64,000 nt of DNA from positions 1 through 64,000 of the IMG/VR virus record IMGVR_UViG_3300025930_000141. The stretch is one strand, 5' to 3'. Position 1 is the stretch's first letter. The number at the start of each line of letters is the position of its first letter. The position numbers were made by a program, and so were the translations under genes. Below, in pieces: positions 36,429 through 51,175 of this stretch. This DNA is from a virus. The notes under the pieces are model-generated. The model saw only the letters and a list, made by a program, of their open reading frames with translations, had not been told where the DNA came from and made no database searches.

Positions 36429-36501
36429 CCGAGCATGTTTGTGTTAATCGAAATGCGGACAGGTCTTGCACATGGTTGATAAACGACCAACGTCGGCTCG
36501 G
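36429..36501 (-). ncRNA. Y RNA-like gene 8 (minimal, distal copy)
   Basis: CCGAGCCGACGUUGGUCGUUUAUC ... CGAUUAACACAAACAUGCUCGG matches the scaffold of the Ro60-adjacent copies. Confidence 0.7.
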
Positions 36502-36535
36502 ACTTGTTTTGTTGTATTTATACTGCCCATATCAG

Positions 36536-36608
36536 CAACCCCATTAGGATTCGAACCTAAACCATCTAGAACCAAAATCTAGCGTCCTGCCAATTAGACC
36601 ATGGGGTT
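36536..36608 (-). tRNA. tRNA-Gln(TTG)
   Basis: CTAGA-TTTTGGT-TCTAG. Confidence 0.88.
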
Positions 36609-36783
36609 GGGTTGCCGTCTTTCCGGCTGTCAGGCTTCCTGGGCCAGTGCCTTATATTTGTATACCGGTTATGACCGTGGCCGGTTGCAGCATCACCACT
36701 CGCATCCCACCCGTTTGTTGCAGGTTTTACTCTTAAGCGATACCCGCTCACCGGCCAAAGCCTTGTCCGTGTGCTGCGTGACC

Positions 36784-36813
36784 ATTGTACACCGGGTGTA
36801 CCGGCCCTGTCAA
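36784..36813 (-). promoter_or_regulatory. SigA-type promoter TTGACA-N18-TACAAT
   Basis: Consensus boxes. Confidence 0.75.
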
Positions 36814-36815
36814 CC

Positions 36816-37142
36816 TCAGATGTTTCTGACCTCACATGGGTCAGAGTCACCCGGACACCATAACTTTAAACCGTCAGCGCGCCATACGCCGGACACGGGC
36901 TTATAGTCTACCTCGGCATATCCGACCGGAGTCAGATAACGGTAAATCAGTGTGTTGTCGGCAGGGCGTAGGTCCAACCACAAGACACCAATACAGCCGC
37001 AAACGGTATTGACCTTAGCACGGGTCATGCCACCCTTAACGCTTACCCACTCGGCGTGGGTCATCATCTGTGGGTCCTTGGCCTGAGCCGGTGCGGGTAA
37101 CAGAACAAACAATGCGGCCAAAGCCGCTACAATCTTTTTCAA
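36816..37142 (-). CDS. secreted protein, BLIP/SmpA-like N-terminal motif
   Basis: Signal peptide; MT.AEW..V..GMT...V...CGC.G. Confidence 0.7.
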   Translation of the reverse strand: MKKIVAALAALFVLLPAPAQAKDPQMMTHAEWVSVKGGMTRAKVNTVCGCIGVLWLDLRPADNTLIYRYLTPVGYAEVDYKPVSGVWRADGLKLWCPGDSDPCEVRNI

Positions 37143-37431
37143 CTTAATCCTTCTCGATAGTACGAAGCCACATCAAACTGCTGTGACCACGTTAGTGGGT
37201 AACCGGTCCAATTGAATGAATCATATACCTGGCCGTCTACGAATACTCTGTAAAGGTACCGGCGCGGGTACAGTTTAATCTCGTCCAGGTATATATCCAC
37301 CTTCGTCCTCCCAAGTGTCGGTGTACTTTTCACATTCTAAACAAACATTGTTAATCACGATGTTGACAATATTGTGTGCGTCTTTATAAACCACATTACA
37401 TGAAGGACACCGCATTACTACACACATGACG

Positions 37432-37506
37432 AGCCACCTATGGGATTCGAACCCATGACCTCAAACTTACCAAGTTTGCGCGCTAACCTAACTGTGCCAA
37501 GGCGGC
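37432..37506 (-). tRNA. tRNA-Thr(GGT)
   Basis: CAAAC-TTGGTAA-GTTTG. Confidence 0.92.
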
Positions 37507-37566
37507 GGGTAGGGAGCGGTACGCTCTGCAAAGTTAGTGCAGTCTAACCACGCCCGCTTACCCCAG

Positions 37567-37637
37567 AGCCCCTAGCCGGGATTGAGCCGACTTCTCCTGT
37601 TTACAAGGCAGGTGCATCACCTTAATGCTTTAGGGGC
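37567..37637 (-). tRNA. tRNA-Thr(TGT), atypical T loop
   Basis: Anticodon loop CTTGTAA; T loop CTCAATC. Confidence 0.8.
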
Positions 37638-37740
37638 GAGTGGTGTGTTTTATGTTTCAATACCGGGCTGCTCCGTCACCAGTCCCTAATGAAACAAATG
37701 TTCACCGTCCATAGCGGCTGGGGGTTGCGCCGCCACCACG

Positions 37741-37814
37741 AGCCGATACGGGGAATCGAACCCCGGCTATTCTACATTACGAAAGTAGTACCATACCATT
37801 TAGGAGTTATCGGC
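37741..37814 (-). tRNA. tRNA-Thr(CGT)
   Basis: Loop TTCGTAA; weak D stem. Confidence 0.8.
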
Positions 37815-37849
37815 AGAGGTACCAGGATAGCAGGCCCGGTACCAGATTG

Positions 37850-38593
37850 TCAAATGAACTTAAGCAGTTCAGACCATGGGCCGTGGTCAGAAGAATTATC
37901 GTCTATGTCCACGTAGGCCGCTATTACTTTAAGTCCCTTTAATACTGCACCGTCGATAAGGCGACTACCATGTGTACCGCGCGACGGTAGCCGGTCAACA
38001 GCAGACCACACCAGTTTCCACATTGGGAACTTAACCTTGATTGCCGCGCGAGCCCAGCGGTGCTTGAAGTTAATGTTCCAGTCACCGGCCAAGATAGAGG
38101 CGTCAGTCTTGAAATGTGTCTTTAGTTGATTACTGCGTCGGCGCAGGTTGTTTGTAGCCTGATGCCAGGCGACCACTCGGTCGGTATGACGGTGGTGGGC
38201 CAGGTCGCCCTCTACTCCCGAAGGGAAGTGACAAACCGAAACCACTACGCGCTTACCAGACTCAAGGTGTTCCAGTACCGCGTTTTGTGCATACAGCGGA
38301 GACGACAGGTGTCCACCCAACTTGAACAGGTGATGAGACACTAAGTACGACTCGTGGAAGATGACCTTAAATACTGACTTGTCATAAACAATGGCAGAGT
38401 CATCTTTGAGTCCCTTGTCGCCAACCACAACACCAAAGCCGGGTACGGCCAGGGCATCCTCGCGGCCCTCGGTAGCCACCTCTGTAAGTGTGATAACTTG
38501 TGCGGTTTGAGCGTACTTGAGTACGGCTCGATGCAATGCCTGAATACTACCCTTGTAGAACCCAGACGAATGCGTGTGCTTAAATCTAATCAT
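37850..38593 (-). CDS. endonuclease/exonuclease/phosphatase (EEP) family protein
   Basis: LTEV, H, AGDWN, ID and SSDH motifs. Confidence 0.85.
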   Translation of the reverse strand: MIRFKHTHSSGFYKGSIQALHRAVLKYAQTAQVITLTEVATEGREDALAVPGFGVVVGDKGLKDDSAIVYDKSVFKVIFHESYLVSHHLFKLGGHLSSPLYAQNAVLEHLESGKRVVVSVCHFPSGVEGDLAHHRHTDRVVAWHQATNNLRRRSNQLKTHFKTDASILAGDWNINFKHRWARAAIKVKFPMWKLVWSAVDRLPSRGTHGSRLIDGAVLKGLKVIAAYVDIDDNSSDHGPWSELLKFI

Positions 38594-38612
38594 GTGCTCA
38601 GTATATCACGCT

Positions 38613-38876
38613 TTAGGAGTCAGCGCCACTAACGTCGGTGCTCTTGGGCCTGCGAGCAAACTTCTCCTGGCGCTTGTCACGGCGCTTCTGGGCAGCCTTG
38701 TCCTTGCGGCGCTGGTACTTGCGATGCAGAGCAAAGATGGTAAGCACGTTACCCTTTAATTCGGTGTCCCAGTCGCCGTACTCGCGGTACTCTTTTTGGA
38801 GTTCTCGCAGGTAGTTAAGGTCGTCACTGATGATGTGCTTATTGCGTGGCCTAGACAATTTCCTCTGCCTTTGCAA
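38613..38876 (-). CDS. basic hypothetical protein
   Basis: ORF track; start probably downstream of the listed position. Confidence 0.55.
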   Translation of the reverse strand: MQRQRKLSRPRNKHIISDDLNYLRELQKEYREYGDWDTELKGNVLTIFALHRKYQRRKDKAAQKRRDKRQEKFARRPKSTDVSGADS

Positions 38877-39198
38877 TAGCCTTATCCATGACCGCGACTA
38901 CCTCGTCTTCGGTGCGACCTGGGGCATCGTTCCAGTATGGAATGTTTAGCAGTTCGTCGGCACGCTTAAACTCGGGGTACTGCTCCTGAACAATTTCCTG
39001 AATAAACTGTGCGTACGGCATGGCCTCTTCACGAACGTAATCAAACTCTCCGGTTTCCTCACCCAGAGCCAAAGCAATGTGGCCGAGAGTACAATAACCA
39101 TTTGTGTCTTCATCATAATAGGCATCCGTGGTCCAGCGACCCGGAATGTTTGTGCGCATCTTGCGCAGTACACTTACATCAATCTTGTTATCGGACAT
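38851..39198 (-). CDS. hypothetical protein, distant family B relative
   Basis: W....Y....YCTLGHI..WND.PGRT..EV. Confidence 0.75.
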   Translation of the reverse strand: MSDNKIDVSVLRKMRTNIPGRWTTDAYYDEDTNGYCTLGHIALALGEETGEFDYVREEAMPYAQFIQEIVQEQYPEFKRADELLNIPYWNDAPGRTEDEVVAVMDKAIAKAEEIV

Positions 39199-39217
39199 TA
39201 ACTTTCCTTTCGTAGAG

Positions 39218-39289
39218 AGTCCCCAGCGGGACTTGAACCCGCGACCGGCAATTTAGGAAATTGCTGTTCTGCCACTGAACTATGGGGAC
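39218..39289 (-). tRNA. tRNA-Arg(CCT)
   Basis: GCAAT-TTCCTAA-ATTGC. Confidence 0.9.
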
Positions 39290-39290
39290 G

Positions 39291-39366
39291 TGCGCCAGAT
39301 GGGAGTCGAACCCACATGTATCCATTATACTTTCAACTGCTTCGGGGGCAGGGGTAATACTAGCGC
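39291..39366 (-). tRNA. rearranged tRNA-Arg(CCG)-like gene (D loop 3' of the anticodon arm)
   Basis: GCGCTAG-TA-T-TAC-CC-CTGC-CCCCGAA-GCAG-TTGAAA-GTA-TAATGG-ATACAT-T arm-CTGGCGC-A. Confidence 0.7.
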
Positions 39367-39367
39367 A

Positions 39368-39814
39368 TTATGGTGGAGGTATTTCAATACCCCGGTCTAC
39401 GTTATGTCTGTACTCAAGAAGTCGCATGTGATGATATGCCCAAAAGACCAATTGAATAATCGCGGGTATAATTTGGAACCAATACCCGTGTGTTGAGTAT
39501 ACCACGACAGCATAGAACCACACAAGGTAGCCGAGCAGCGGTCCAGCGCTAGAAATGGGCCTGTAGCGCATCAATAAATTCACGATGGACAGAACCACCG
39601 CTGCAATTGCTGCGACGCCCCAGAGGCTCACAGCGGGCACCAGGGCTATGTCTGTGGTCAACTGGTAGAGCACGCTGGCCTGCACCGACGCGGTGCTGGT
39701 GAAAAACACAAAGGCTATACCCATGTTCAGCGTATATGCCAACATAAGGTATAGCCAAAGAGGGAAGCGTTCACCCTCGCTTCGGTAGATTAATCTTGGC
39801 AAATACTTTCTCAT
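39368..39814 (-). CDS. 4-TM membrane protein
   Basis: Four hydrophobic helices; own upstream -10. Confidence 0.75.
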   Translation of the reverse strand: MRKYLPRLIYRSEGERFPLWLYLMLAYTLNMGIAFVFFTSTASVQASVLYQLTTDIALVPAVSLWGVAAIAAVVLSIVNLLMRYRPISSAGPLLGYLVWFYAVVVYSTHGYWFQIIPAIIQLVFWAYHHMRLLEYRHNVDRGIEIPPP

Positions 39815-39886
39815 GTACTGATTTTACCACACTGTCCACAAAAAGCATTGAGTCTGCTACTCTATCCCAAAAGAAGTTAATCATCG

Positions 39887-39958
39887 AGGCACTTACCGGA
39901 TTCGAACCGGTATAAAGTAGGGTTGCAATCTACTGGATAGCCATTCTCCCAAAGCGCC
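39887..39958 (-). tRNA. tRNA-Cys(GCA)
   Basis: Loop TTGCAAC; U73. Confidence 0.88.
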
Positions 39959-40236
39959 ATAGACCGGGCGGGCTGACTCACGAATGCAAGAAGTAGGGTT
40001 GTTGCTAGCACAGAGCCCACGGTACTTTCGGATAACCAGCCGGTACGCCGCACTATCACGTAGCGCCCGGTAAAGCCTATTTAATTTTAACGCCCAGTCT
40101 TTCGACGTTCTTATCGTTCTCTACACCGTCCTTACCGCGCTGACAGCGCGGCGAACAGTAAACTCTGTCTTCGACAATCCAAAGGTGAGTTGCAATCCTG
40201 CACTTGCATTTAGTACATTTCACATTGGGTTCATTT

Positions 40237-40470
40237 TTACGTGCCCTGTGGGCCACGCTTGCGAGCGCGTTGCCGCGCCTCGTATGGAGTCGGCTCCCCA
40301 CGGTCTCGGTATTGCTCGTTTACGAGCCACGCCTTATGGTTTGCCTCGATGTTTGCCTTTTTCCTGCGCTGTGCTGCTTCCCAGCACGCCTTACGCTTTG
40401 CTCTGCGGTTTACGTTCATCGCACGCTTCGGCAAGTTCTTGCGCAGTTTGGCGTCGTTTTGTCCAGCCAT
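40237..40470 (-). CDS. small basic protein
   Basis: SD GGGGGTG; Arg/Lys-rich. Confidence 0.6.
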   Translation of the reverse strand: MAGQNDAKLRKNLPKRAMNVNRRAKRKACWEAAQRRKKANIEANHKAWLVNEQYRDRGEPTPYEARQRARKRGPQGT

Positions 40471-40645
40471 GACTTTTAGTCACCCCCTTAAGGTTTACCT
40501 AATCGTCATGGCTTGCTCCTATGTTGTTCAAACTTGTCTCCTGTTATGGATATACCGGCCCCTACGGGTCCAACGCCACCCACCCTCGGTAGGACGAGGT
40601 TAAGCGTGAAGCGTTCGGTAGTGATAGCACTCCCGACCGGTATTG

Positions 40646-40719
40646 TGGAGGTAAAGGGATTTGAACCCTTGACTTCTAGTATGCCATACTAGCGTTCTAC
40701 CTGGCTGAACTATACCCCC
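40646..40719 (-). tRNA. tRNA-Ala(GGC)
   Basis: G3:U70; loop ATGGCAT. Confidence 0.92.
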
Positions 40720-40813
40720 AGGGCACCCTTTGTTAAAGCAGGTCTGGCGACTGCACCCCGCGCGCAGGGTCACGGCTTCTCGGCCCTTGTACTTTGGGTC
40801 TCATCCATCATTG

Positions 40814-40886
40814 TGGAGGATACCGGAATCGAACCGGTGACTTCTACCTTGCAAAAGTAGCACTCTACCTGCTGAGTTAATCCCCC
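40814..40886 (-). tRNA. tRNA-Ala(TGC)
   Basis: G3:U70; loop TTTGCAA. Confidence 0.92.
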
Positions 40887-40904
40887 AGGATTATTTAGTT
40901 AGCG

Positions 40905-40975
40905 TGGCGTACGAGAGATTTGAACTCTCAGAGTAGGGATTTACAGTCCCGCTCCCTCAACCAACGGTGTACGCC
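40905..40975 (-). tRNA. tRNA-Tyr(GTA), no long variable arm, weak D arm
   Basis: Loop CTGTAAA; intact acceptor and T arms. Confidence 0.75.
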
Positions 40976-40985
40976 GTGTGGTCCC

Positions 40986-41014
40986 ATTGTACAGGTTGGG
41001 ACCGTACCTGTCAA
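40986..41014 (-). promoter_or_regulatory. SigA-type promoter TTGACA-N17-TACAAT
   Basis: Directly upstream of tRNA-Tyr. Confidence 0.8.
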
Positions 41015-41289
41015 GCCTGTGTTATTGTGATTTGTAGGAAGTCGTTGGCGCTTCCCTCGACCGGCTTGTGGTCCTCGTTAAAGTGACCATTGATGTTTAC
41101 TACCCAATCATGGTCGGGCCAGTTACGACCAAAGACCATGGTTCTATCAAATAGGTCGTAAACCACTTCACTTGCTGCGTCGATTGCTCGTACCGCTGCC
41201 TCGTTGTCCTCGACATTTACCATGTCTTGGACCTCACCCGTGTGGCTGTCGCCAGTATTCTTTAATACTACCTTTGCTGAAAAACTCAT
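41011..41289 (-). CDS. hypothetical protein
   Basis: TAATG coupling to the lytic enzyme gene. Confidence 0.65.
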   Translation of the reverse strand: MSFSAKVVLKNTGDSHTGEVQDMVNVEDNEAAVRAIDAASEVVYDLFDRTMVFGRNWPDHDWVVNINGHFNEDHKPVEGSANDFLQITITQA

Positions 41290-42050
41290 TAGCCCGCCAA
41301 TACAGCGTCAATATAAGACCATACGTTGCGCGGTGTAGTCGTGCCCGCTGGTGTATAAAACTGTGGACGACCCTGGCTAATCCAACGGTCTGCTCCACCT
41401 AGGCCTAGATTATAAGACGCTACCGCGTCGCCTAGAACGCCATAACGCTGGAACGCTTGGTCATTACCCTTGCTGTTCTTGAAGTGTGTTAATGCGTTGT
41501 TCATGTAATTGGTTACAAAGTCGAATGCAATCTTTGGTCGGAACCGCTCGATTGCATCTAAGTCCGGGTGCGAAGGACCATTGATTTGTGCTAGTCCTAG
41601 GTCTTCCGGGTCCACGAAGCCTACCGCGCCAGCGTCCCATGAGGACTCGTGACGGATAATACCAGAAACAACAACCGGGGTAAGCGGTGGCTTACCGCTG
41701 GCCTCGACCTCTGAGATAAGGTCGGGGTACAGCAATAGGAAAGAACTGTCTTCCCCAATGCCGCCCCAAGGCGTTACGAAGTCCTTATGCTTGTTCTGGA
41801 ATGTTGTAACTGCATCGCTCGTGGCCTGGTCGAACTTACCAGTAACCTTAACCGTTCCCTTGCCAAGTCTACGGTTGAGTGCTCGTTGATATGCCTTAAC
41901 TGCATGATGAACAGCAAAGTTATCTTGATTTGTAGTTGGGTCTAGTTCACCAGACCCGAGATAGTAATACGGTCCAGGCTTGGTTGACTTATAAGCCTTG
42001 GTACCGCCTGCGCCGGAATTATTCCAAGCGCCTCTTCCATGAGTTGCCAT
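41289..42050 (-). CDS. peptidoglycan-binding + lytic transglycosylase protein (endolysin-like)
   Basis: VKAYQRAL..G.F...T..AV..FQ binding domain; HESSW, GLAQIN and ASYN.G SLT motifs. Confidence 0.85.
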   Translation of the reverse strand: MATHGRGAWNNSGAGGTKAYKSTKPGPYYYLGSGELDPTTNQDNFAVHHAVKAYQRALNRRLGKGTVKVTGKFDQATSDAVTTFQNKHKDFVTPWGGIGEDSSFLLLYPDLISEVEASGKPPLTPVVVSGIIRHESSWDAGAVGFVDPEDLGLAQINGPSHPDLDAIERFRPKIAFDFVTNYMNNALTHFKNSKGNDQAFQRYGVLGDAVASYNLGLGGADRWISQGRPQFYTPAGTTTPRNVWSYIDAVLAG

Positions 42051-42072
42051 AATATTATGTTCCCTTCGGGAG

Positions 42073-42142
42073 TGCTGATGCCGGGAATTGAACCCAGACC
42101 AAGTGGTTATGAGTCACTTCGGCTCGCCGTCGCCTCACCAGC
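42073..42142 (-). tRNA. tRNA(CAT), elongator Met or Ile2, compact 70 nt
   Basis: Loop CTCATAA; G1-C72. Confidence 0.75.
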
Positions 42143-42234
42143 AATGCTACAGTTCTTACTAACGCACCGCTCCGCTCCGCTGTAGCACCGTGCGGAATCC
42201 CATGCGAATGGGCTTAAGGTACCCTATCCCATTG

Positions 42235-42307
42235 TGCGGTAGACGGGACTCGGACCCGCAACTTCCACGTTGGCAACGTGACACTCTACCAATTGAGTTA
42301 CTACCAC
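42235..42307 (-). tRNA. tRNA-Gly(GCC)
   Basis: Loop TTGCCAA; T loop TCCGAGT; A73. Confidence 0.85.
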
Positions 42308-42380
42308 TGGTGGGGCTTGGTTCTTTTATTTATGCAGGTTAAGAAACACCCCGGCAATAAGCCCTGCGTTATCCGTACTT

Positions 42381-43172: not shown

Positions 43173-43712
43173 TCAGGTCAACCTGGCACGAACTACGGTG
43201 CGATAGTCTGTGTGAACAAACCTCGACGCACATGTAATAAGTGTTAATGTTTCGTGCCTGTTGTTTAATACAGATACATTGGTGTAGTATACGTTGAACT
43301 TGTTTGTAACTTTAAACGTGTATTGGGTTCCACATTTTTCAATGACTACCCGGTCGCCGGGTGTCAATTCTGGGAGCCGCGCAAAGGGCTCTCCGTGCGT
43401 TACAACGTGTGCAGTGAGCGCATAGTTCCCCCTGCCCACCGGGCCGGTATGTGGGAAGTGCCCCACGACCCCTGAGTTTAGCACCTTTTCACTGACGCCA
43501 TTCTCAATCGGCATTACGTAATGCCCCCAGGATGGAACCCGAATTAGTGCGCCGGGGCACTTGTGCAGGGCTACGCCCTGTCTAATCTTTGAAACCTCAG
43601 CCTTTTGATGTTGTTCAATGGCTACCGGGTCAGACCCGGTATGGGGCATTCCGAAGAATACAACCATACCGAGCCCGACCACAATCAGTGTCAGTGCGAA
43701 TAACTTACGCAC
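43173..43712 (-). CDS. sortase
   Basis: N-terminal TM; GNYALTAH (His), TLTLITC (Cys), R..V.A (Arg); GTG at 43712 overlaps the substrate's 3' end. Confidence 0.92.
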   Translation of the reverse strand: MRKLFALTLIVVGLGMVVFFGMPHTGSDPVAIEQHQKAEVSKIRQGVALHKCPGALIRVPSWGHYVMPIENGVSEKVLNSGVVGHFPHTGPVGRGNYALTAHVVTHGEPFARLPELTPGDRVVIEKCGTQYTFKVTNKFNVYYTNVSVLNNRHETLTLITCASRFVHTDYRTVVRARLT

Positions 43713-44655
43713 GCTTACGAGACAATAGCAGGAGACCGGAGCCAGCAATTAGCAGACCCAGACCAACAAACAAAGACGTGTTGGCGGTATCTGACAAACC
43801 AGCATTCGGTAGGGACCGTGCTACAGGTGGTGCAAGTGCAGCGGGCGGCTTATGCCCACTTGGGTTATGCGGGGTATTTACCGGAGGCTTGGGCGACGGG
43901 TTATCTACCGGTGGCGTAGGCGTCGGTGTAGGAGTCGGTGTGTCGGTCGTGCAGGTCACACCGTCCGTCCAAGCATAGAAGGTAACCTCGTCAGAGGCTT
44001 CCTGGTCAGTTACAGTTTCATCAAATGCTTCCTGGTCAACGATAACTTCGTCATATGCCTCCTGGTCTACAACCGTTTCATCATATGCATCTTGGCCCGG
44101 AGTAATCAATTCTCCGTGCTCGCGGTGGAACCAAGAAGAGTTACCGCTATTTCCATTACTGGAATTAAACGTGCCGTAAGTATCTTGGTCAGGACCGCCG
44201 TTTTCGTGAGGCCCCTGCCATGTGCCACGCTCATCATTGGGGAATTCAGGGGTGTAATCTTGTGGTCCATGAGTATAATTCGGGGACCAATTCCACCACA
44301 GGTCGGGGCCATAAACAGCCGGTACCGCGTCGTGATGGATAACATGTGTTACCGCGTCGTGATGTACTGTATGCGTCACAGCGTCGTGATGTACAACGTG
44401 GGTGACTGCTGGGTGATGAACTGTCAAAACCCACGAGCGTGTAGTATCACACTCGTTGTCGGTGACAAAGGTAGAAACCTCGTCCTCGATTGCACCTTGC
44501 GGAACGTCGTTAGGGCTTGCAACCACAATTGGGTTACTAGCAGACTCACCGGGGACACCGGTTGCGTTGGCGGTGCTGAGCATTGCGCCCGCACCCAAAA
44601 CAATACCGGCTACCATAAGTACGGTCGCCAGTATTGTCGATAAAATCTTTGTCAT
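43705..44655 (-). CDS. LPxTG-type cell-wall-anchored surface protein
   Basis: Signal peptide, His and acidic repeats, PT linker, LPNAG + TM + RKRA tail. Confidence 0.88.
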   Translation of the reverse strand: MTKILSTILATVLMVAGIVLGAGAMLSTANATGVPGESASNPIVVASPNDVPQGAIEDEVSTFVTDNECDTTRSWVLTVHHPAVTHVVHHDAVTHTVHHDAVTHVIHHDAVPAVYGPDLWWNWSPNYTHGPQDYTPEFPNDERGTWQGPHENGGPDQDTYGTFNSSNGNSGNSSWFHREHGELITPGQDAYDETVVDQEAYDEVIVDQEAFDETVTDQEASDEVTFYAWTDGVTCTTDTPTPTPTPTPPVDNPSPKPPVNTPHNPSGHKPPAALAPPVARSLPNAGLSDTANTSLFVGLGLLIAGSGLLLLSRKRA

Positions 44656-45169: not shown

Positions 45170-45170
45170 A

Positions 45171-45246: not shown

Positions 45247-45271
45247 ATGGCCCGCCGAAGCGGGCATTTAA

Positions 45272-45343: not shown

Positions 45344-45532
45344 GTACCTCACCACCTACCCTCAAGGGTAACAGGTGAGCGTTCAGTTGTCAAGCCGATG
45401 TTTTGGGCTTTCACAACCACAAGCATATACCCCATAAGTGTCAGACCACATGAGGTCGGGACATTTATCGTGGTCGTCGTCTAGGCAAAATACACAATGG
45501 GGCATTTCACCTTCATATAATTCATACATACG

Positions 45533-45605
45533 CGCCCCCGGCAGGATTCGAACCCGCGACCACTAGAGTAGAAAACTAGCACTCTGTCCACTGAGTTACG
45601 AGGGC
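45533..45605 (-). tRNA. tRNA-Arg(TCT)
   Basis: Loop TTTCTAC; A20. Confidence 0.9.
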
Positions 45606-45967
45606 ATTACCAGCCAGCCCACTCTGCGCCCCCCCATTTGACCCAATCAATGTTTCCAGCCATTATGTCATCAACACAAGGCTTACATGCATCATAGGGA
45701 ACGCGCTCGTTTTGTTTGTCTACCATTTCCAGTACACCGTCCGCTGGACGGGAATTGCAAATGTTACACCACTTAATTGCTCCTGGCATCATTTTCTTAT
45801 TTGTCTGTATTCGACTTCTGTTACTTCTACCGCTCCCTCGGTGCCGGTGGCGAATACGTCTCGCAAGGCGTCCAGAGCGTCGTCGTCGTCAAATGCTTCA
45901 ATCTCGCACCAAACGGAAACCTTAAACTTGTACTTTTCCATGCTTCAATTGTAGCATAGATTGGGTC

Positions 45968-46342
45968 TTAGAGAAGTTCTCGACGCAAATCGTGGAACTT
46001 GTCTGCGTCACCGTTGGCAATGGCGGTAAGCATGTCAATGGCCTGCTCGTTATTTGTGTCGTAAAACAACGACGACCATTCGTACCGGTCCAGACCAAGA
46101 TAATCTCCCGCAGCGTAGTCAACGGCACTGAGAACAATTTGACCTTCCTGCTGCCATTGAACCGTACCGGCTACGCACATGGTCGTGTCACACAGATTTA
46201 CCTGACCAGTGAAGTGTCGCAAATCTTCTACAGATGCGTCTTCCCAACTAACGAAATTGTTCTGGTCGTGACGCTCTGGGTACATACGAAGGTAATCGAG
46301 AGCCTGCTGGGCAACGCGCTTGGTGTTTTCTGTTACGTCCAT
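45968..46342 (-). CDS. hypothetical protein (H.Q..F..CDT.MCVAG)
   Basis: SD AGGAG; motif loosely like family B. Confidence 0.75.
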   Translation of the reverse strand: MDVTENTKRVAQQALDYLRMYPERHDQNNFVSWEDASVEDLRHFTGQVNLCDTTMCVAGTVQWQQEGQIVLSAVDYAAGDYLGLDRYEWSSLFYDTNNEQAIDMLTAIANGDADKFHDLRRELL

Positions 46343-46429
46343 TACTTACTCCTAGATAGGCCGAACCAACGTGGTCCGTGTTTGTAACAATACTTTTCTG
46401 GATATGCGATAAAGATGTTAATGTTCATG

Positions 46430-46502
46430 TACCCTCGACAGGATTCGAACCTGCGACCTCTTCGTCCGTAGCGAAGCGTTCTATCCACTGAACTACGAGG
46501 GC
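46430..46502 (-). tRNA. tRNA-Arg(ACG)
   Basis: CTTCG-CTACGGA-CGAAG. Confidence 0.92.
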
Positions 46503-46506
46503 ATGT

Positions 46507-46612
46507 ATTCGGATATGGTACGAAGTCGATAGGACACCAGTCCCAAATAGGCAGGAATCGAACCTGGCCTCGCTAACTTTGGCAACGATAAACGACTATC
46601 ATCGACCCGAAT
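46507..46612 (-). ncRNA. Y RNA-like gene 6 (T-arm payload)
   Basis: AUUCGGGUCGAUGAUAGUCGUUUAUC ... CAGG-UUCGAUU-CCUG ... CGACUUCGUACCAUAUCCGAAU. Confidence 0.8.
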
Positions 46613-46623
46613 TAAGTATTAAA

Positions 46624-46740
46624 TTAGCAGGAATGGCAAGGCCAGTTTGTGTCTACCCTGGCCTCAGATGGAGCGGCGACAGCGCCGACCAGTCCAAGTG
46701 CCATTACAGCGGCGGCAAGCGCGCCAGCAATTCTCTTCAT
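46624..46740 (-). CDS. 38-aa secreted pre-peptide (signal + RVDTNWPCHSC)
   Basis: SD GGGAGG; signal peptide ending PSEA. Confidence 0.75.
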   Translation of the reverse strand: MKRIAGALAAAVMALGLVGAVAAPSEARVDTNWPCHSC

Positions 46741-46761
46741 TGCAACCTCCCGTGATAAGGT

Positions 46762-46867
46762 TGGGCATAATTGTAATCGGAATTTAAGTCTACTTTGCGC
46801 TTGGAGGCGCACGTGCTATTTACACCAATAGGGAAGTCCCCATAGATAACCGATATACTTCGGCCCA
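46762..46867 (-). ncRNA. Y RNA-like gene 7 (D-arm + anticodon-arm payload)
   Basis: UGGGCCGAAGUAUAUCGGUUAUC ... CGAUUACAAUUAUGCCCA. Confidence 0.78.
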
Positions 46868-46868
46868 G

Positions 46869-46939
46869 AGCGGGTACGGAGAATCGAACTCCGGTAATCT
46901 GATTGGAAGTCAGGAGCACTACCATTGTGCTATACCCGC
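46869..46939 (-). tRNA. tRNA-Gly(TCC)
   Basis: Loop CTTCCAA; U73. Confidence 0.92.
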
Positions 46940-46940
46940 G

Positions 46941-47012
46941 TAGCGCCACTGGGACTTGGACCCAGTTTTCTCGGGCTTCAACCGAGCGCATATCCATACA
47001 TGCTCTGACGCC
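46941..47012 (-). tRNA. tRNA-Phe(GAA)
   Basis: CTCGG-TTGAAGC-CCGAG; T loop TCCAAGT. Confidence 0.82.
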
Positions 47013-47061
47013 TTGGCTGTACCCGGCCCCACATTTGCTCGATGAGGCCGGGTACAATGCA

Positions 47062-47090
47062 ATTGTAACAGGTCAGACTGAGCGTGTCAA
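47062..47090 (-). promoter_or_regulatory. SigA-type promoter TTGACA-N17-TACAAT
   Basis: Upstream of the Phe-Gly-Y7-peptide-Y6-Arg unit. Confidence 0.8.
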
Positions 47091-47304
47091 GTCTACGACC
47101 CACTCTTCTAACTTGCTGTCAATGTAATAAAGAACTTGGTCCTTTATCTCAAATTTACCGTCACGATGGTCGTACAGGTCGCCCTGTCTGACACCCCAAT
47201 AAACCGGGACCCTCACAAAAGTGCTCCAATTACTAGTGCACACAAGAGCAATAGCACAAACAGGAATAATCCGAAGTCTGCTAGAAACTCAATTATGTTG
47301 TCTA

Positions 47305-48300
47305 TCATGCCTTGATAAGCAGTCTCGTGTTTGGCATCAGGTTACGGTTAATCGAGGTTGACTGAACGAAAATGTCGTAGTCCGGGTTGTAATCGGGCTT
47401 TACCCGTACCGTGTGGCTTGGTAGGCCAATAAGGTCACGAGCATTCTGACCACCATAAGCCTTACCGGTAGACTTCTCTACTACGATAATAGACTTCTGT
47501 GGCTGAATGTTTTCAGTCTTTGTCAACTGGTAGTAACCCATACCCTTGGAGTAGGCGTAACCCAGGCGACGAACAAAGTCGTCAATGCGGGTCTTGGAGT
47601 CTACGTTGTAGAACTCATAACCATCCAAAGGCTGTAGGTTCTTAACCGTTGCCTTGTTTACCGCATCTGCGCCTGTCGAGAAGACGGCGCGCGAGCCACG
47701 TACACCGCTGGCACGGTTTGTCATGAAGTTGTCTGTGGCCGTACGGATGGTGCTGACGGCCTCAACAATTCCAGTGGCACTAGTGGTGTCCCAAATTGCT
47801 ACGGAGCCTGCATCGGCCCCCAGACGGCTCACATAGGCCTGTCCTGACCTGTCAGGCACCAGCCAACCGATGGTCCAGTTGTCTGCTGCGCGGTTTAGCA
47901 TGTTTGCCAGGTCGTGAGCGCTGTGACGCGAGCGGTTTTCCTGTCCGTCGGTTAGGACGAATGTCAGGAATGCGTGGTCACCATAAAGTTGGCTGGTCGT
48001 AGCCAAGTCCTGCTGGCTCTTGATGGTTGCGTCAATAAGGGCGGTAAGTCCTCGGACGTTGTAAAGGTCACTAATCGACGGTAGACGCATTACGTCCATA
48101 TCGAAGATTAGGCACTCTACGTTATCGTGGAACAGATATACGCTGACTCGCGTCTCTTGTTGCAATTCTTCGCTTCTCAGAGCGAGGTAACGAATCTGTT
48201 CGTCGGCTACCTGGATTAACTTGCTTCTGTGGCTCGTCATGCTGGAACTACCGTCCAGCACGAGCGCCACGTGATTAATTAGTCGTTGTGCTTTGTGCAT
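47305..48300 (-). CDS. von Willebrand factor A domain protein
   Basis: MIDAS DGSSSM, TALIDA, LTDGQEN; extra C-terminal domain. Confidence 0.88.
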   Translation of the reverse strand: MHKAQRLINHVALVLDGSSSMTSHRSKLIQVADEQIRYLALRSEELQQETRVSVYLFHDNVECLIFDMDVMRLPSISDLYNVRGLTALIDATIKSQQDLATTSQLYGDHAFLTFVLTDGQENRSRHSAHDLANMLNRAADNWTIGWLVPDRSGQAYVSRLGADAGSVAIWDTTSATGIVEAVSTIRTATDNFMTNRASGVRGSRAVFSTGADAVNKATVKNLQPLDGYEFYNVDSKTRIDDFVRRLGYAYSKGMGYYQLTKTENIQPQKSIIVVEKSTGKAYGGQNARDLIGLPSHTVRVKPDYNPDYDIFVQSTSINRNLMPNTRLLIKA

Positions 48301-48392
48301 TAATTTCTCCTATGGCCCCTTCGACAAGAGGAACATTACTAGAACGAGCGCCACTGTCAGCAGATATGCGACAACAGCAATTTCCGTGCCGC

Positions 48393-48614
48393 TCAAAACT
48401 TGAGCGCAACACCAACAATTACTGCTAGTACACACAGAATGGGGAAGAACGGAATGAAACTGGCTAGAAACAGAAACAGTAACGAACCGCCACCCGCAAC
48501 CATAAGGCCGGTGCCGACCCCTGACTTTGATGACTTCTCGACTTCATAAGAGTCTCGCTTGGTAATTGACATTGCTTTCCTAACTATCGAAGTTGCATTG
48601 TTTTGTACACTCAT
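48393..48614 (-). CDS. small membrane protein
   Basis: Two C-terminal TMs; leaderless after TATAAT. Confidence 0.6.
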   Translation of the reverse strand: MSVQNNATSIVRKAMSITKRDSYEVEKSSKSGVGTGLMVAGGGSLLFLFLASFIPFFPILCVLAVIVGVALKF

Positions 48615-48661
48615 TATACCAGAAGAGGGGCACTTTTTTCAAGTGCCCCTCTCTGGATTTG

Positions 48662-50260
48662 TCAGACTCGACCAGCGAAGAAGTTAGCCATTACGCTAGG
48701 CGTAGATGAGTCGAAACCTACTACGTCGAGCATACCGGCGTCCTTCGGGTCTGCCACGGTGAAGCCTGTTGAGACCATACCTACAGAAACTAGGCGGGCG
48801 TTGCGGCCACGAGAGTCGCGGTACTGCTTAAGTGCGACATTTGGCTTAACGCTACCGGCCCACGTCTCGTTGTCGGTGTAAACCGCGAAAGCATCAACAT
48901 CAATACCCTTGCTCTTGGCGTAAACCATTGGCTGGGCAATGTCGGTGCCACCGAACGACAAACCGCTGACCTTACGGAGCACGGTTTCGAACGAATCGGC
49001 GTCACCGATGTTCAGGGTTACCAACGAAGTCGTGAAGGCGTTAACCACAACGTAAGGCTCGGTGCGCACGGTGACCATAGCCATGAGCGCAGCGGCCTCT
49101 CGACAGTTAAGACCAACGAGGCCAGCAGGGGCGTACATGGTCATAGAACCTGAAACGTCAAGGCTTACCATGGTTGGAACACCGGCAGGCTCGACGGTCT
49201 TGAAGGACTCATAGAATCCAGACTCAAGAGCGCCCAAAACCTTAGCGTTCATACCACGGTGCTGCTTACCGAGGATACCGCGAGCGTTGGCGTACTGGAC
49301 TGGGTGTACCCGGCCCTTTACGATACGCTCGCCGTCAGCAAGAGCAATAGCCACGTCGCCTGCGAACTTAACGTCCTTGAAAGCACCAATCTCTTCGAAC
49401 CGCTTGAGGTTACGAATGAGAGCGGTCTGACCTAGAGCGCCGTTGTAGAAAAGCGTCTTCCATACGTCAGGGTCCTTAAGGAACTGGGTAGGAATGGTTT
49501 CCCAAGGAAGAGCCTTGTACGTGTTAAGAACGCGCACAACTTCCTTGGCGCTTGTGGTGCGCTGCATGGCCTTGAAACCGTCGATAATTTCCGGCGTGTT
49601 TTCAATCTCGGCACGGTCGGCCTTGATAGGCCCGCCAAGAACAAAGTCACCAATGCTAACGTTTACGCCCTTAGGGTGAGCAAGACGGAATACGTCGCGG
49701 TGCGTCCAACCGTCGCGCTGGCGGTACTTGACTACCTGATAAGCCAACTGGTTGTCGTCCTTAGACGTGTACCAGTCTGCAAGGCTACCGCGCTTTGCGC
49801 GACCAAGGCCACCCAAGTCCTTAAGGTACTGTGCGTACTCGAAAAGGTGGGTACCGGTGCGGGCAACCTTAGGGACAAGCGCCCGAACGGCAGCCTTGTT
49901 CTCAGCGTTGTGCATGAGCAAGGCTAGCACGAAAAGGCTAGGGCTGTTCTTAGGTGCGCGGTTTTCGTCAGCGACAGCGCGGAGCGTGTCGATAACCAAC
50001 TGCTCGTCAGACTTGATAAGTGCGAGGACGAACTTAGCGTTGTCCTTGGTCAACTTACGCTCTGAGACGTAGTAGGTACCGCCGTCCGTACCAAGAATCA
50101 GGAATCGCTCAAGGCGAACCTGCGGCGTAACACCGAATACAAAACCTCCGGCGTTGTTACGTACCTCGTCGGTACGTCCAGGGGTACGCTTGTTCTGAGG
50201 CGTACCGTTGTAACGAGTGTTTGCGATTTCACCCGTTAAGTTCTTTAATGCGTTCTTCAT
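48662..50260 (-). CDS. rsr: Ro60 / TROVE-domain RNA-binding protein (Rsr)
   Basis: NNAGGFVF..RLERFLILGTDGGTYY, KYRQRDGWTHRD..RLAHP, LPWE, ALIRNL, RVHP; vWA DVSGSM, GGTD, YTDNETW, DAGMLDVVGFD. Confidence 0.96.
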   Translation of the reverse strand: MKNALKNLTGEIANTRYNGTPQNKRTPGRTDEVRNNAGGFVFGVTPQVRLERFLILGTDGGTYYVSERKLTKDNAKFVLALIKSDEQLVIDTLRAVADENRAPKNSPSLFVLALLMHNAENKAAVRALVPKVARTGTHLFEYAQYLKDLGGLGRAKRGSLADWYTSKDDNQLAYQVVKYRQRDGWTHRDVFRLAHPKGVNVSIGDFVLGGPIKADRAEIENTPEIIDGFKAMQRTTSAKEVVRVLNTYKALPWETIPTQFLKDPDVWKTLFYNGALGQTALIRNLKRFEEIGAFKDVKFAGDVAIALADGERIVKGRVHPVQYANARGILGKQHRGMNAKVLGALESGFYESFKTVEPAGVPTMVSLDVSGSMTMYAPAGLVGLNCREAAALMAMVTVRTEPYVVVNAFTTSLVTLNIGDADSFETVLRKVSGLSFGGTDIAQPMVYAKSKGIDVDAFAVYTDNETWAGSVKPNVALKQYRDSRGRNARLVSVGMVSTGFTVADPKDAGMLDVVGFDSSTPSVMANFFAGRV

Positions 50261-50307
50261 TTTGTTTCCTTTCGTCCCGGTCGTTTCGGGAATGTTATAT
50301 TAACGAC

Positions 50308-50397
50308 TGGCGGCTACTGTAGGATTCGAACCCACGGAAGGTTTTACCCTTCGCTTGTTTTCAAGACAAGTGCAATCGCCCACTCTGCCAAGTAGCC
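50308..50397 (-). tRNA. tRNA-Ser(TGA)
   Basis: Long variable arm; G73; encoded CCA. Confidence 0.93.
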
Positions 50398-50401
50398 GAG
50401 T

Positions 50402-50544
50402 ATGCTGGATATAAGTGCGAAATCGGGGTTTAACGGCGGCTTTACCATTTGCCTATACCCCACATGAATTGGGTGGGGCAACAGGATTCGAACCTGCATT
50501 CACCGGCTCCAAAGGCGATAACCGATATTCAATCGACCCAGCAT
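50402..50544 (-). ncRNA. Y RNA gene 1 (YrlA class; contains a complete permuted tRNA-Gln(UUG))
   Basis: Ro stem AUGCUGGGUCGA../..AUAUCCAGCAU; T arm, loop-closed acceptor stem, D arm; 142 nt upstream of the ro60 start. Confidence 0.9.
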
Positions 50545-50552
50545 TAAGTTGT

Positions 50553-50670
50553 GTACCGAATATGTTATTGCAACGGAGTTTTTACTATATAGCATACAGC
50601 ACACCGACAGGGCCGGTGTATTGGATTTGAACCAATGATTTCCGATAACCGTTAACATTCGACTCGGTAT
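50553..50670 (-). ncRNA. Y RNA gene 2 (YrlA-like)
   Basis: AUACCGAGUCGA..CGGUUAUC; AUUGG-UUCAAAU-CCAAU; ACACCGGC-CCU-GUCGGUGU; ..CAUAUUCGGUAC. Confidence 0.87.
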
Positions 50671-50672
50671 AG

Positions 50673-50746
50673 TAGCGGAGACGGGATTTGAACCCGCGTT
50701 GTCAGGATTATGAGCCCTGTGTTTAACCGAACTAAACTACTCCGCG
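50673..50746 (-). tRNA. tRNA-fMet(CAT)
   Basis: C1xU72 mismatch; GGG in the anticodon stem. Confidence 0.9.
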
Positions 50747-50748
50747 AG

Positions 50749-50821
50749 TGGGCCGTATAGGATTCGAACCTATGACTTCTTCGGTGTAAACGAAGCACTC
50801 TAACCACTGAGTTAACAGCCC
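50749..50821 (-). tRNA. tRNA-Val(TAC)
   Basis: CTTCG-TTTACAC-CGAAG. Confidence 0.92.
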
Positions 50822-50824
50822 ATG

Positions 50825-50937
50825 GTACCGGACATAAGGTTGAAATCGAGCGTTTTGACTGGGGACCGCCCCATGCACGAGTCGAACGTGCCCGACCTTA
50901 TATTCAGTAAGATAACCGATTTCATTCGGCCCGGTAT
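50825..50937 (-). ncRNA. Y RNA-like gene 3 (T arm + short acceptor-like hairpin)
   Basis: AUACCGGGCCGAAUGAAAUCGGUUAUC; GCACG-UUCGACU-CGUGC; ..CGAUUUCAACCUUAUGUCCGGUAC. Confidence 0.85.
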
Positions 50938-50945
50938 TTAGTTTT

Positions 50946-51021
50946 GAGAGGATATGTGGTCGGCATCGTGTTTATGGTTAATTGCAATATAATTAGATAA
51001 ACGATACCGTTCGACCCTCTT
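50946..51021 (-). ncRNA. Y RNA-like gene 4 (minimal)
   Basis: AAGAGGGUCGAACGGUAUCGUUUAUC ... CGAUGCCGACCACAUAUCCUCUC. Confidence 0.8.
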
Positions 51022-51023
51022 TG

Positions 51024-51098
51024 CGACCTTGAAGGGATTTGAACCCTCGGCTTCTAGCGTGACGGGCTAGCACTCTAACCAGACTGAGTTACAAGGCC
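51024..51098 (-). tRNA. tRNA-Asp(GTC), C33
   Basis: CTAGC-CCGTCAC-GCTAG; G73. Confidence 0.9.
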
Positions 51099-51109
51099 AT
51101 GTTAATTTA

Positions 51110-51175
51110 GAGCGAATATGTGGTTGACCAACGGGGGTTCATTGTTGTAAGATAACCGTCAATCTTCGACTCGCT
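51110..51175 (-). ncRNA. Y RNA-like gene 5 (minimal)
   Basis: AGCGAGUCGAAGAUUGACGGUUAUC ... CGUUGGUCAACCACAUAUUCGCUC. Confidence 0.8.

What the first reader, a model, noticed from the sequence alone, without database searches (positions are those of the whole stretch)
36429..51175. Phage Ro60 with eight Y RNAs: one conserved Ro-binding scaffold carrying interchangeable payloads
Seen: one intact Ro60/TROVE gene (48662-50260) and eight non-coding units on the same strand, at 50402, 50553, 50825, 50946, 51110, 46507, 46762 and 36429, 12 kb away. All share the 5' consensus GRGYCGA-N7-9-CG(G/U)UUAUC and the 3' consensus CG-N-YAURYYC. The terminal and upper stems differ in sequence between copies but remain paired (natural covariation). 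The inserts differ: full tRNA (Y1), T arm + acceptor (Y2, Y3), T arm (Y6), acceptor + D + anticodon arm (Y7), or a short loop/hairpin only (Y4, Y5, Y8). Each copy sits next to tRNA genes. Known: Ro60 binds a bulged-C GGUC(C)GA helix; bacterial and phage Ro loci generally carry only a few Y RNAs (YrlA/YrlB type); Y RNA can tether Ro to PNPase. Inference: the phage uses one Ro60 ring with a library of adaptor or decoy RNAs, released from polycistrons by tRNA processing. Their job could be to redirect RNA decay/repair or to soak up tRNA-targeting defence nucleases.
Basis: partly seen in the sequence, partly recalled or inferred. Interest (0 to 1): 0.93.

Follow-up and report, generated by a model that had tools for sequence, protein, structure and literature searches.

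The report
Phage Ro60 with eight Y RNAs
An uncultured soil phage encodes an intact Ro60 ring protein and eight small RNA genes that share one Ro60-type docking stem but carry different middles; this is a real but enlarged example of the known Ro60/Y-RNA partnership, and similar unannotated arrays of 4 to 7 turn up beside many phage and bacterial Ro60 genes.

Summary
On the minus strand of this 80.7-kb rhizosphere phage contig lie an intact Ro60 gene (48662-50260) and exactly eight units with the motif GRGYCGA-N7-8-CGKUUAUC...YAURYYC. Shuffles give 0.13 units on average.

All eight fold into the same two-helix scaffold, and 12 of its 16 base pairs show compensatory changes. A covariance model built from the eight scores them at 49-67 bits; the next best hit in the window scores 16.

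The same model finds about 250 further units beside Ro60 genes in 72 phage loci and 80 bacterial loci, and all but 2 lie on the Ro60 strand. Arrays of 4-7 are common. The cultured Streptomyces phage Kenrey has six, all unannotated. Rfam's YrlA model misses them.

So these are Y RNAs of the YrlA/YrlB kind, and Y1 is a full tRNA mimic. Eight copies is the most I saw, but it is not unique in kind.

The "adaptor or decoy library" function is untested: no RNA data exist for this phage. One complete relative keeps four units but lacks Ro60.

This scan has reported similar multi-RNA Ro60 loci on other DNA before.

The parts
48662..50260 (-). Ro60/Rsr gene, 532 aa, intact
   Evidence: Pfam TROVE 1e-34 and vWA_Ro60 1e-57. 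Full-length match to Rsr 2NVO at 4e-102, with the MIDAS motif DVSGSM kept.
50403..50542 (-). Y1: scaffold plus a full tRNA-like module (T arm, 7-bp acceptor hairpin with an encoded CCA, D arm, possible anticodon loop)
   Evidence: R3 61.5 bits. Rfam YrlA aligns T arm, acceptor and D arm but scores only 18 bits against a threshold of 69. ARAGORN calls tRNA-Gln(UUG) on one permutation, but see the control.
50554..50668 (-). Y2: scaffold plus T arm, acceptor-like hairpin and a third hairpin
   Evidence: R3 53.2 bits. T arm ATTGG/TTCAAAT/CCAAT. Fold z-score -3.3.
50826..50935 (-). Y3: scaffold plus T arm and a short hairpin
   Evidence: R3 63.1 bits. T arm GCACG/TTCGACT/CGTGC.
50946..51020 (-). 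Y4: minimal unit (26-nt insert)
   Evidence: R3 67.4 bits. Fold z-score -3.5.
51110..51175 (-). Y5: minimal unit (16-nt insert)
   Evidence: R3 55.6 bits.
46761..46869 (-). Y7: scaffold plus three hairpins and no T arm. The last hairpin has a 7-nt anticodon-like loop, CUCCAAG.
   Evidence: R3 50.8 bits. Fold. No T arm. It abuts tRNA-Gly.
46507..46611 (-). Y6: scaffold plus a hairpin, a T arm and a second hairpin
   Evidence: R3 48.9 bits. T arm with loop TTCGATT. Lies 4 nt upstream of tRNA-Arg.
36427..36502 (-). Y8: distal minimal unit, 12.2 kb from Ro60
   Evidence: R3 54.2 bits. Lies 7 nt upstream of tRNA-Asn. Distal same-strand copies also occur in relatives G001, G003, G005 and G009.
50308..51471 (-). 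Dense array upstream of Ro60, in this order: tRNA-Pro, a 140-nt gap, a tRNA-like gene, Y5, tRNA-Asp, Y4, Y3, tRNA-Val, tRNA-Met, Y2, Y1, tRNA-Ser
   Evidence: ARAGORN and Rfam tRNA calls. Spacers of 2-11 nt.
51510..51539 (-). Promoter-like site upstream of tRNA-Pro (TTGACA-18-TACACT)
   Evidence: Consensus scan. The number of sites in the region is not above shuffles, so this is weak evidence.
47062..47090 (-). Promoter-like site upstream of tRNA-Phe, tRNA-Gly, Y7, a small ORF, Y6 and tRNA-Arg
   Evidence: Consensus scan, 11 of 12 positions. Weak evidence.

Best explanation
The eight units are paralogous genes for Y RNAs, the small RNA partners of Ro60, of the bacterial and phage YrlA/YrlB kind.

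Each RNA closes with a 5-8 bp terminal helix that ends G-R-G-Y paired to R-Y-Y-C. Next comes the conserved C-G-A, with the C probably bulged and the G pairing with a conserved pyrimidine. A second helix of about 9 bp follows, then an invariant UUAUC box. This is the Ro60-docking module.

The space above it holds a full tRNA-like module (Y1), partial tRNA-like modules (Y2, Y3, Y6), other hairpins (Y7) or almost nothing (Y4, Y5, Y8).

Inferred steps:
1. The RNAs are transcribed with the neighbouring tRNAs and, for Y1-Y5, with ro60.
2. They are cut out by the host's tRNA-processing nucleases.
3. They are bound by the phage Ro60 ring.
4. They gate the ring or tether it to partners such as host PNPase, with the variable module deciding partner or stability.

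Shown here: the family, its covariation, its linkage to Ro60 and its copy numbers. Not shown: expression, Ro60 binding and the partners.
For: - Motif count: 8 against 0.13 expected, all on one strand.
- Fold: every unit gives the same two-helix minimum-energy fold.
- Covariation among the eight: 96.7% of cells paired, 12 of 16 pairs with changes on both sides, 0 of 500 shuffles as high, and 30-45% paired when the partners are slid.
- Model R3 separates the eight (49-67 bits) from everything else in the window (16 bits or less).
- R3 in 72 phage Ro60 loci: 128 hits, all on the Ro60 strand, mostly within 1.5 kb upstream.
- R3 in 80 bacterial or MAG Ro60 loci: 122 hits, 120 on the Ro60 strand.
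- Covariation in 82 relatives: 94.2% paired, 15 of 16 pairs compensatory, the Y:R pair reads C-G 49 times and U-A 33 times with none unpaired, and UUAUC is invariant.
- An unbiased scan for the 5' motif in viral contigs returned 80 loci. All 22 loci that hold Ro60 had R3 units. 43 loci with the 5' motif alone had none. 8 of 10 further records with units hold Ro60 elsewhere.
- Orthologous unit classes persist across BE-like phages at 70-92% identity.
- Motif match to the literature: GNCGAAN0-1G, same strand and close to Ro60, and a processed common precursor in M. smegmatis (Chen 2014, PMC4201824). In Thermus phage phiLo, Yrl1 and Yrl2 have a CGAA bulge between two stems and bind the phage Ro60 and host PNPase (PMC12135203).
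Against: - No expression or binding data exist; no RNA run holds the stretch.
- Rfam YrlA reaches only 18 bits on Y1 (threshold 69) and nothing on the others. Rfam Y_RNA gives no hit.
- Thermodynamic z-scores are modest for five of the eight units, from -0.4 to -1.7.
- Alignments A8 and A9 were fitted to the model structure, which inflates the pairing percentages.
- One complete relative, G004, keeps four units but has no Ro60. Phage Ro60 is therefore not strictly required for the units to be retained.
- Y8 lies 12 kb from ro60.
Confidence: 0.78

Rival explanations
1. The RNAs act mainly as tRNA decoys. The tRNA-like modules would soak up host anticodon nucleases, tRNA-modifying enzymes or other tRNA-targeting defences, and Ro60 would only stabilise them.
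For: Four of the eight units carry canonical T arms. Y1 has acceptor, D arm and an encoded CCA, and can be permuted into an ARAGORN tRNA-Gln. Y7 has an anticodon-like 7-nt loop. The locus sits in a 30-plus tRNA island, a feature often linked to evasion of tRNA-targeting defences. A PNKP-like phosphatase ORF lies just upstream.
Against: About half of the family, here and in relatives, has inserts under 35 nt with no tRNA-like part (43 of 90). Decoy function cannot explain the conserved scaffold. The permuted-tRNA call is not discriminating. No RNA ligase or RtcB is present on the contig. No experimental precedent was found in the papers searched.
Confidence: 0.12
2. The units are Ro60-independent structured spacers or processing and stability elements of polycistronic tRNA operons.
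For: Each unit abuts a tRNA gene. The complete relative G004 keeps four units in the same tRNA synteny without any Ro60 gene.
Against: Across relatives the units follow Ro60, not tRNAs. Only 11 of 82 have a same-strand tRNA within 20 nt, and 22 of 43 loci have no tRNA at all. Bacterial arrays such as the one in Arachnia propionica sit beside rsr without tRNA genes. The conserved 5' motif is the published Ro60-recognition motif.
Confidence: 0.06
3. The units are decayed tRNA pseudogenes or chance repeats with no function.
For: The minimal units are short, and some fold no better than shuffled sequence (Y8 z-score -0.4, Y5 -1.2).
Against: The counts are 8 against 0.13 expected. Compensatory changes occur in both helices. 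The minimal class recurs in dozens of unrelated phage and bacterial Ro60 loci, and orthologues are conserved between phages.
Confidence: 0.02

Closest known systems
Bacterial YrlA/YrlB Y RNAs with Rsr (S. Typhimurium and M. smegmatis; Chen et al. 2014, PMC4201824; Rfam RF02553)
   Same: They are encoded close to Ro60 on the same strand. They carry the GNCGA(A) motif near the 5' end inside a stem formed by the two RNA ends. One RNA per genome has a T arm, an acceptor-like hairpin and a D arm in permuted order. Companion RNAs lack the full tRNA module (YrlB). In M. smegmatis they are processed from a common precursor.
   Different: There are eight paralogues instead of one or two, in three places up to 12 kb from ro60 and interleaved with tRNA genes. 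An invariant UUAUC box is present that the paper does not mention. The Rfam model scores only 18 bits. Y1 encodes its own CCA and may retain an anticodon loop.
Thermus phage phiLo Ro60 with Yrl1 and Yrl2 (NAR 2025, PMC12135203)
   Same: A phage-encoded Ro60 has Y-like RNAs directly upstream. The RNAs have a stem-bulge-stem design with CGAA in the bulge. Binding to the phage Ro60 and to host PNPase was shown experimentally.
   Different: phiLo has two RNAs and no tRNA-like payload was reported. Here there are eight with diversified payloads, and nothing has been tested biochemically.
Mycobacteriophage Ro60 loci with YrlA-like RNAs (Pedulla 2003; Chen 2014)
   Same: These are actinophages with large tRNA sets, a Ro60 gene and a predicted YrlA nearby.
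   Different: The published counts average about 1.3 per genome (355 RNAs in 276 genomes). With model R3, a 164.6-kb relative (G001) shows five units, four of them 36-39 kb from ro60.
Metazoan Y RNA families (four human Y RNAs; nematode stem-bulge RNAs). This comparison rests on my own knowledge.
   Same: One Ro60 protein serves several paralogous RNAs that share the Ro-binding helix (GGUCCGA with a bulged C) and differ in the loop. The phage helix GGGY[C]GA, with G pairing to a conserved pyrimidine, is compatible with that geometry.
   Different: No sequence-level membership: Rfam Y_RNA gives no hit. Metazoan Y RNAs have no tRNA-like modules.
D. radiodurans Yrn1/Yrn2 and the RYPER complex (Ro60, Y RNA and PNPase)
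   Same: This is the functional model: the Y RNA tethers the Ro60 ring to PNPase and gates its cavity. The phage Ro60 is 4e-102 to Rsr.
   Different: Yrn1 has a different module order. No PNPase gene or interaction is known for this phage.

Membership tests
Bacterial/phage Y RNA of the YrlA/YrlB kind (criteria of Chen et al. 2014) | Encoded within about 4 kb of a Ro60 gene and on the same strand | tested here: met
   Y1-Y5 lie 0.14-0.9 kb upstream and Y6 and Y7 1.8-2.2 kb downstream, all on the minus strand like ro60. Y8 is on the same strand but 12.2 kb away.
Bacterial/phage Y RNA of the YrlA/YrlB kind (criteria of Chen et al. 2014) | GNCGAAN0-1G motif near the 5' end | tested here: met
   The match is exact in Y2, Y3, Y4, Y5 and Y7. 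Y1 and Y6 read GUCGAU and Y8 reads GCCGAC, so GNCGA is present in 8 of 8.
Bacterial/phage Y RNA of the YrlA/YrlB kind (criteria of Chen et al. 2014) | The 5' and 3' ends pair into a stem that carries the Ro60-recognition motif | tested here: met
   The fold is the same in all eight. Covariation: 12 of 16 pairs among the eight and 15 of 16 among 82 relatives.
Bacterial/phage Y RNA of the YrlA/YrlB kind (criteria of Chen et al. 2014) | At least one RNA per genome has a tRNA-like domain (T arm, acceptor-like stem, D arm) | tested here: met
   In Y1 the RF02553 alignment places T arm, acceptor and D arm, and ARAGORN accepts a permuted form. T arms are also present in Y2, Y3 and Y6.
Bacterial/phage Y RNA of the YrlA/YrlB kind (criteria of Chen et al. 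2014) | Bound by Ro60 and expressed as a discrete RNA | not testable with these tools
   No RNA run holds the stretch.
Rfam YrlA (RF02553) | Score at or above the gathering threshold of 69 bits | tested here: not met
   Y1 scores 18 bits and the other units have no hit. The model also misses all R3 units in eight related phage and bacterial loci, so it is too narrow to decide membership of the wider kind.
Rfam Y_RNA (RF00019, metazoan) | Match to the covariance model | tested here: not met
   No hit at E up to 10 in 50250-51300.
Metazoan-type Ro-binding helix | Bulged C inside the conserved helix, followed by G-U and A-U pairs | tested here: inconclusive
   With the C left unpaired, the invariant G faces U or C in 76 of 82 relatives. 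The next position pairs in only 37 of 82.
Ro60/TROVE protein | TROVE HEAT-repeat ring plus a C-terminal vWA domain with a MIDAS motif, at full length | tested here: met
   Both Pfam domains match. Residues 20-532 align to Rsr 16-534 with DVSGSM conserved.

The most novel reading that the evidence does not exclude
One phage Ro60 ring is programmed by a set of eight differentiated Y RNAs. These would include a CCA-bearing, circularly permuted tRNA-Gln mimic that RNase P and the aminoacylation or anticodon-nuclease machinery can recognise. The set would then work as an RNA-based counter-defence or RNA-decay-retargeting library, each paralogue recruiting a different host factor. The invariant UUAUC box, which from memory sits at the same spacing in human Y1 and Y4, would be an ancient second Ro60 or partner contact shared from phages to animals.
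Probability: 0.12. Interest if true: 0.85.

Novelty: new variant of a known kind. Interest (0 to 1): 0.55.

Why it matters
Ro60/Y-RNA particles are a long-studied but functionally opaque RNA-surveillance system and a human autoantigen. Bacterial and phage work so far has dealt with one or two Y RNAs per genome.

The data here show three things. First, many phage and bacterial Ro60 genes sit beside unannotated arrays of 4-8 Y-type RNAs. Second, these RNAs fall into a minimal class and a tRNA-mimic class that share one scaffold with an invariant UUAUC box. Third, distinct paralogue classes are conserved between phages.

This gives a concrete, searchable model of the family, which Rfam's YrlA model misses. 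It also points to cultured test systems: the Streptomyces BE-cluster phages, including a natural relative without Ro60. In those systems one can ask directly what the variable modules recruit.

Tried and rejected
- RNA runs: no RNA holder is listed for the stretch. DNA contigs from four rhizosphere runs showed no variants inside the units, so population-level covariation could not be read.
- Direct MAFFT alignment of the eight units misaligned the 3' halves. I bootstrapped with single-sequence covariance models instead (R1 and R2). R1, seeded on the shortest unit, missed the five long units.
- Rfam at gathering threshold found only tRNAs.
- Doubling and trimming the inserts to detect permuted tRNAs with ARAGORN proved too permissive. 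It made calls in 21 of 38 long units with shifting anticodons. I therefore do not count the tRNA-Gln call on Y1 as strong evidence.
- A search for RNA-repair partners on the contig found no RtcB and no Rnl2. The Rnl1 search was uninformative because its control did not ring. The contig is only about 63% complete.
- The promoter and terminator scan gave plausible minus-strand promoter-like sites, but their number is not above shuffles.
- The two Wolin reviews (PMC10870794, PMC6047535) and the supplementary tables of Chen 2014 are not held. The published per-genome maximum of Y RNAs could not be read.


Full report
**What is there**

The window is the first 64 kb of an 80,711-nt IMG/VR viral contig, estimated about 63% complete. 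Its DNA recurs in rhizosphere metagenomes. Everything relevant lies on the minus strand, inside a large tRNA island of 30 ARAGORN and 33 Rfam tRNA calls.

The ORF 48662-50260 encodes a 532-aa Ro60. It matches Pfam TROVE and vWA_Ro60. It aligns over its full length with D. radiodurans Rsr (2NVO, 4e-102), human Ro60 and Xenopus Ro60, and the MIDAS motif is conserved.

The composite 5' motif YCGA-N6-10-CGKTTATC occurs exactly eight times, all on the minus strand. 300 dinucleotide shuffles give a mean of 0.13 and a maximum of 1. The whole contig has no forward-strand or control matches.

**Structure**

Folded alone, each unit adopts the same architecture:
- a terminal helix of 5-8 bp;
- an internal loop that holds CGA(N) on the 5' side and ...YAU on the 3' side;
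- a second helix of about 9 bp;
- UUAUC, followed by a variable insert.

Free-energy z-scores are only modest, from -0.4 to -3.5, so stability alone proves little.

MAFFT could not align the 3' halves, so I bootstrapped covariance models from single units. On the resulting alignment of the eight, 96.7% of cells pair and 12 of 16 pairs carry changes on both sides. No shuffle out of 500 reaches these values, and sliding the partners drops pairing to 30-45%. The Y of GYCGA pairs with the R of AURYYC as U-A five times and C-G three times.

A model built from the eight (R3) scores them at 48.9-67.4 bits. The next best hit in the window scores 16.2 bits. There is no ninth copy on the contig.

**Independent support from other genomes**

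- R3 was run over 72 viral loci chosen only because they encode a Ro60 relative (33-51% identity). It gave 128 hits at E up to 1. Every hit was on the Ro60 strand, and most were within 1.5 kb upstream.
- Over 80 bacterial or MAG Ro60 loci it gave 122 hits, 120 on the Ro60 strand.
- On 82 relatives' units, 94.2% of cells pair and 15 of 16 pairs are compensatory. The Y:R pair reads C-G 49 times and U-A 33 times with none unpaired. The CG of GYCGA is present in 80 of 82, and U, U and C of the UUAUC box in 82 of 82.
- The reverse test was a scan of viral contigs for the 5' motif alone, which returned 80 loci. R3 units were present in 37 of them, including all 22 that hold Ro60 within the locus. 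The 43 loci with the 5' motif alone had no R3 unit.
- Of ten further unit-bearing records checked whole, eight encode Ro60 elsewhere. The scaffold is therefore tied to Ro60, not to phages in general.

**Copy number**

Arrays are common. I saw up to six per viral locus (L045, L195, L210, L239) and seven in a Polyangiaceae MAG (L145). Arachnia propionica, Micropruina and Longimicrobium loci have four each.

The cultured Streptomyces phage Kenrey belongs to cluster BE, the nearest named relatives of this contig. It has six units upstream of its "Ro-like RNA binding protein" gene, all in gaps of the GenBank annotation.

Distal same-strand copies, like Y8 here, occur in complete relatives. They lie 6-10 kb away in G003 and G005, 29 kb away in G009 and 36-39 kb away in G001.

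Eight is the largest count I saw, but it is not different in kind.

Within BE-like phages the paralogues fall into orthologous classes that are conserved at 70-92% identity. This argues that the different versions are each maintained.

**Payloads**

Across 90 units, 43 have inserts under 35 nt and none of these has a T arm. 42 have inserts of 50 nt or more, and 31 of these have a canonical T arm. In this window:
- Y1, Y2, Y3 and Y6 have T arms.
- Y4, Y5 and Y8 are minimal.
- Y7 has three hairpins and no T arm.

Y1 has a T arm, a 7-bp acceptor hairpin followed by C-CCA, and a D arm, in the permuted YrlA order. One chosen permutation is called tRNA-Gln(UUG) by ARAGORN. A control with trimmed permutations also gives calls in 21 of 38 long units, with shifting anticodons. 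"Complete tRNA" is therefore plausible but not established.

**Context**

Upstream of ro60 the order is: tRNA-Pro, a gap, a tRNA-like gene, Y5, tRNA-Asp, Y4, Y3, tRNA-Val, tRNA-Met, Y2, Y1, tRNA-Ser, ro60. Spacers are 2-11 nt. No minus-strand terminator-like site lies in between, and a promoter-like site sits upstream of tRNA-Pro (weak evidence).

Co-transcription and release by tRNA-processing enzymes is thus a reasonable inference. There is a precedent in the common YrlA/YrlB precursor and the RNase P cleavage reported for M. smegmatis (Chen 2014).

This interleaving is specific to the lineage. Only 11 of 82 relatives' units have a tRNA within 20 nt, and half of the loci have no tRNA at all.

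A 134-aa PNKP-phosphatase-like ORF lies just upstream. No RtcB or Rnl2 is on the partial contig.

**Mechanism and rivals**

The best reading (0.78 that these are Ro60-partner Y RNAs) is that the conserved two-helix module with GGGY[C]GA and UUAUC docks on the phage Ro60. The variable module then sets stability or partner choice, as in the RYPER model, where the Y RNA tethers Ro60 to PNPase. This has been shown for D. radiodurans and Salmonella, and for Thermus phage phiLo with host PNPase (PMC12135203). Expression, binding and partners are inferred, not shown.

Rival readings:
- tRNA-decoy function (0.12). It fits the tRNA mimics but not the abundant minimal class.
- Ro60-independent elements of tRNA operons (0.06). 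One fact favours it: the complete relative G004 keeps four units in conserved synteny but has no Ro60. The Ro60 linkage elsewhere contradicts it.
- Pseudogenes or chance (0.02).

**Comparison with what is known, and verdict**

The units meet the published operational criteria for YrlA/YrlB-type Y RNAs: position, strand, the GNCGA(A) motif, the closing stem, and a tRNA-like member. They fail Rfam's narrow YrlA threshold (18 against 69 bits), and that model also misses every relative tested.

In the papers I could search, phage and bacterial loci are described with one or two Y RNAs (Chen 2014: 355 RNAs in 276 genomes; phiLo: two). I found no description of arrays of this size or of the UUAUC box. 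Two key reviews and the supplementary tables were not available.

I rate the finding a new variant of a known kind. It is real and well supported, and it matters mainly because it generalises and because cultured relatives make it testable.

Earlier notes of this scan report comparable multi-RNA Ro60 loci in other phages. I did not test those.

Noticed in passing
L288 (G004:C1:62000-72000) 3811-5022: A complete 125.7-kb BE-like phage with terminal repeats keeps four high-scoring Y-like units in the tRNA-Ile/Ser/Asp synteny but has no Ro60 or TROVE gene anywhere in its genome. It is a natural Ro60-less comparator.
   Followed up: partly
window 51472-51876 (-): A 134-aa ORF resembles the phosphatase part of polynucleotide kinase (PHROG 415 at 1e-10; weak Pfam HAD_PNKP). 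It lies directly upstream of the tRNA and Y-RNA array. No RNA ligase or RtcB was found on the partial contig.
   Followed up: partly
window 46624-46740 (-): A 38-aa ORF with a signal-peptide-like N-terminus and two C-terminal cysteines, preceded by GGGAGG, sits between Y7 and Y6 inside the RNA gene array.
   Followed up: no
window 51179-51255, 40905-40975, 37567-37637, 37741-37814 (-): Four Rfam tRNA hits (31-47 bits) are not called by ARAGORN, so they may be unusual or rearranged tRNA-like genes. The first directly precedes Y5 and ends in CCA.
   Followed up: no
alignment A9, columns 29-33 (window example 51151-51155): The UUAUC box right after the second helix is invariant in 82 of 82 relatives but is not mentioned in Chen 2014. 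From memory, human Y1 and Y4 carry GUUAUC at the same distance from GGUCCGA. I did not test this.
   Followed up: partly
L145 7708-9611; L124 5325-5918: Bacterial Ro60 loci also carry tandem arrays of the same scaffold. A Polyangiaceae MAG has seven units downstream of rsr, and Arachnia propionica has four upstream. None is detected by Rfam YrlA.
   Followed up: partly
G001:C1:92694-95283 and 131017-131093: A 164.6-kb phage has one unit just upstream of its Ro60 gene and four more 36-39 kb away on the same strand, so Y-like genes can be far from ro60.
   Followed up: no
window 43173-44655 (-): An ORF with a weak LPXTG cell-wall-anchor match (Pfam, 7.5e-4) lies next to an ORF that other notes call a sortase. 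This suggests a Gram-positive, probably actinobacterial, host.
   Followed up: no
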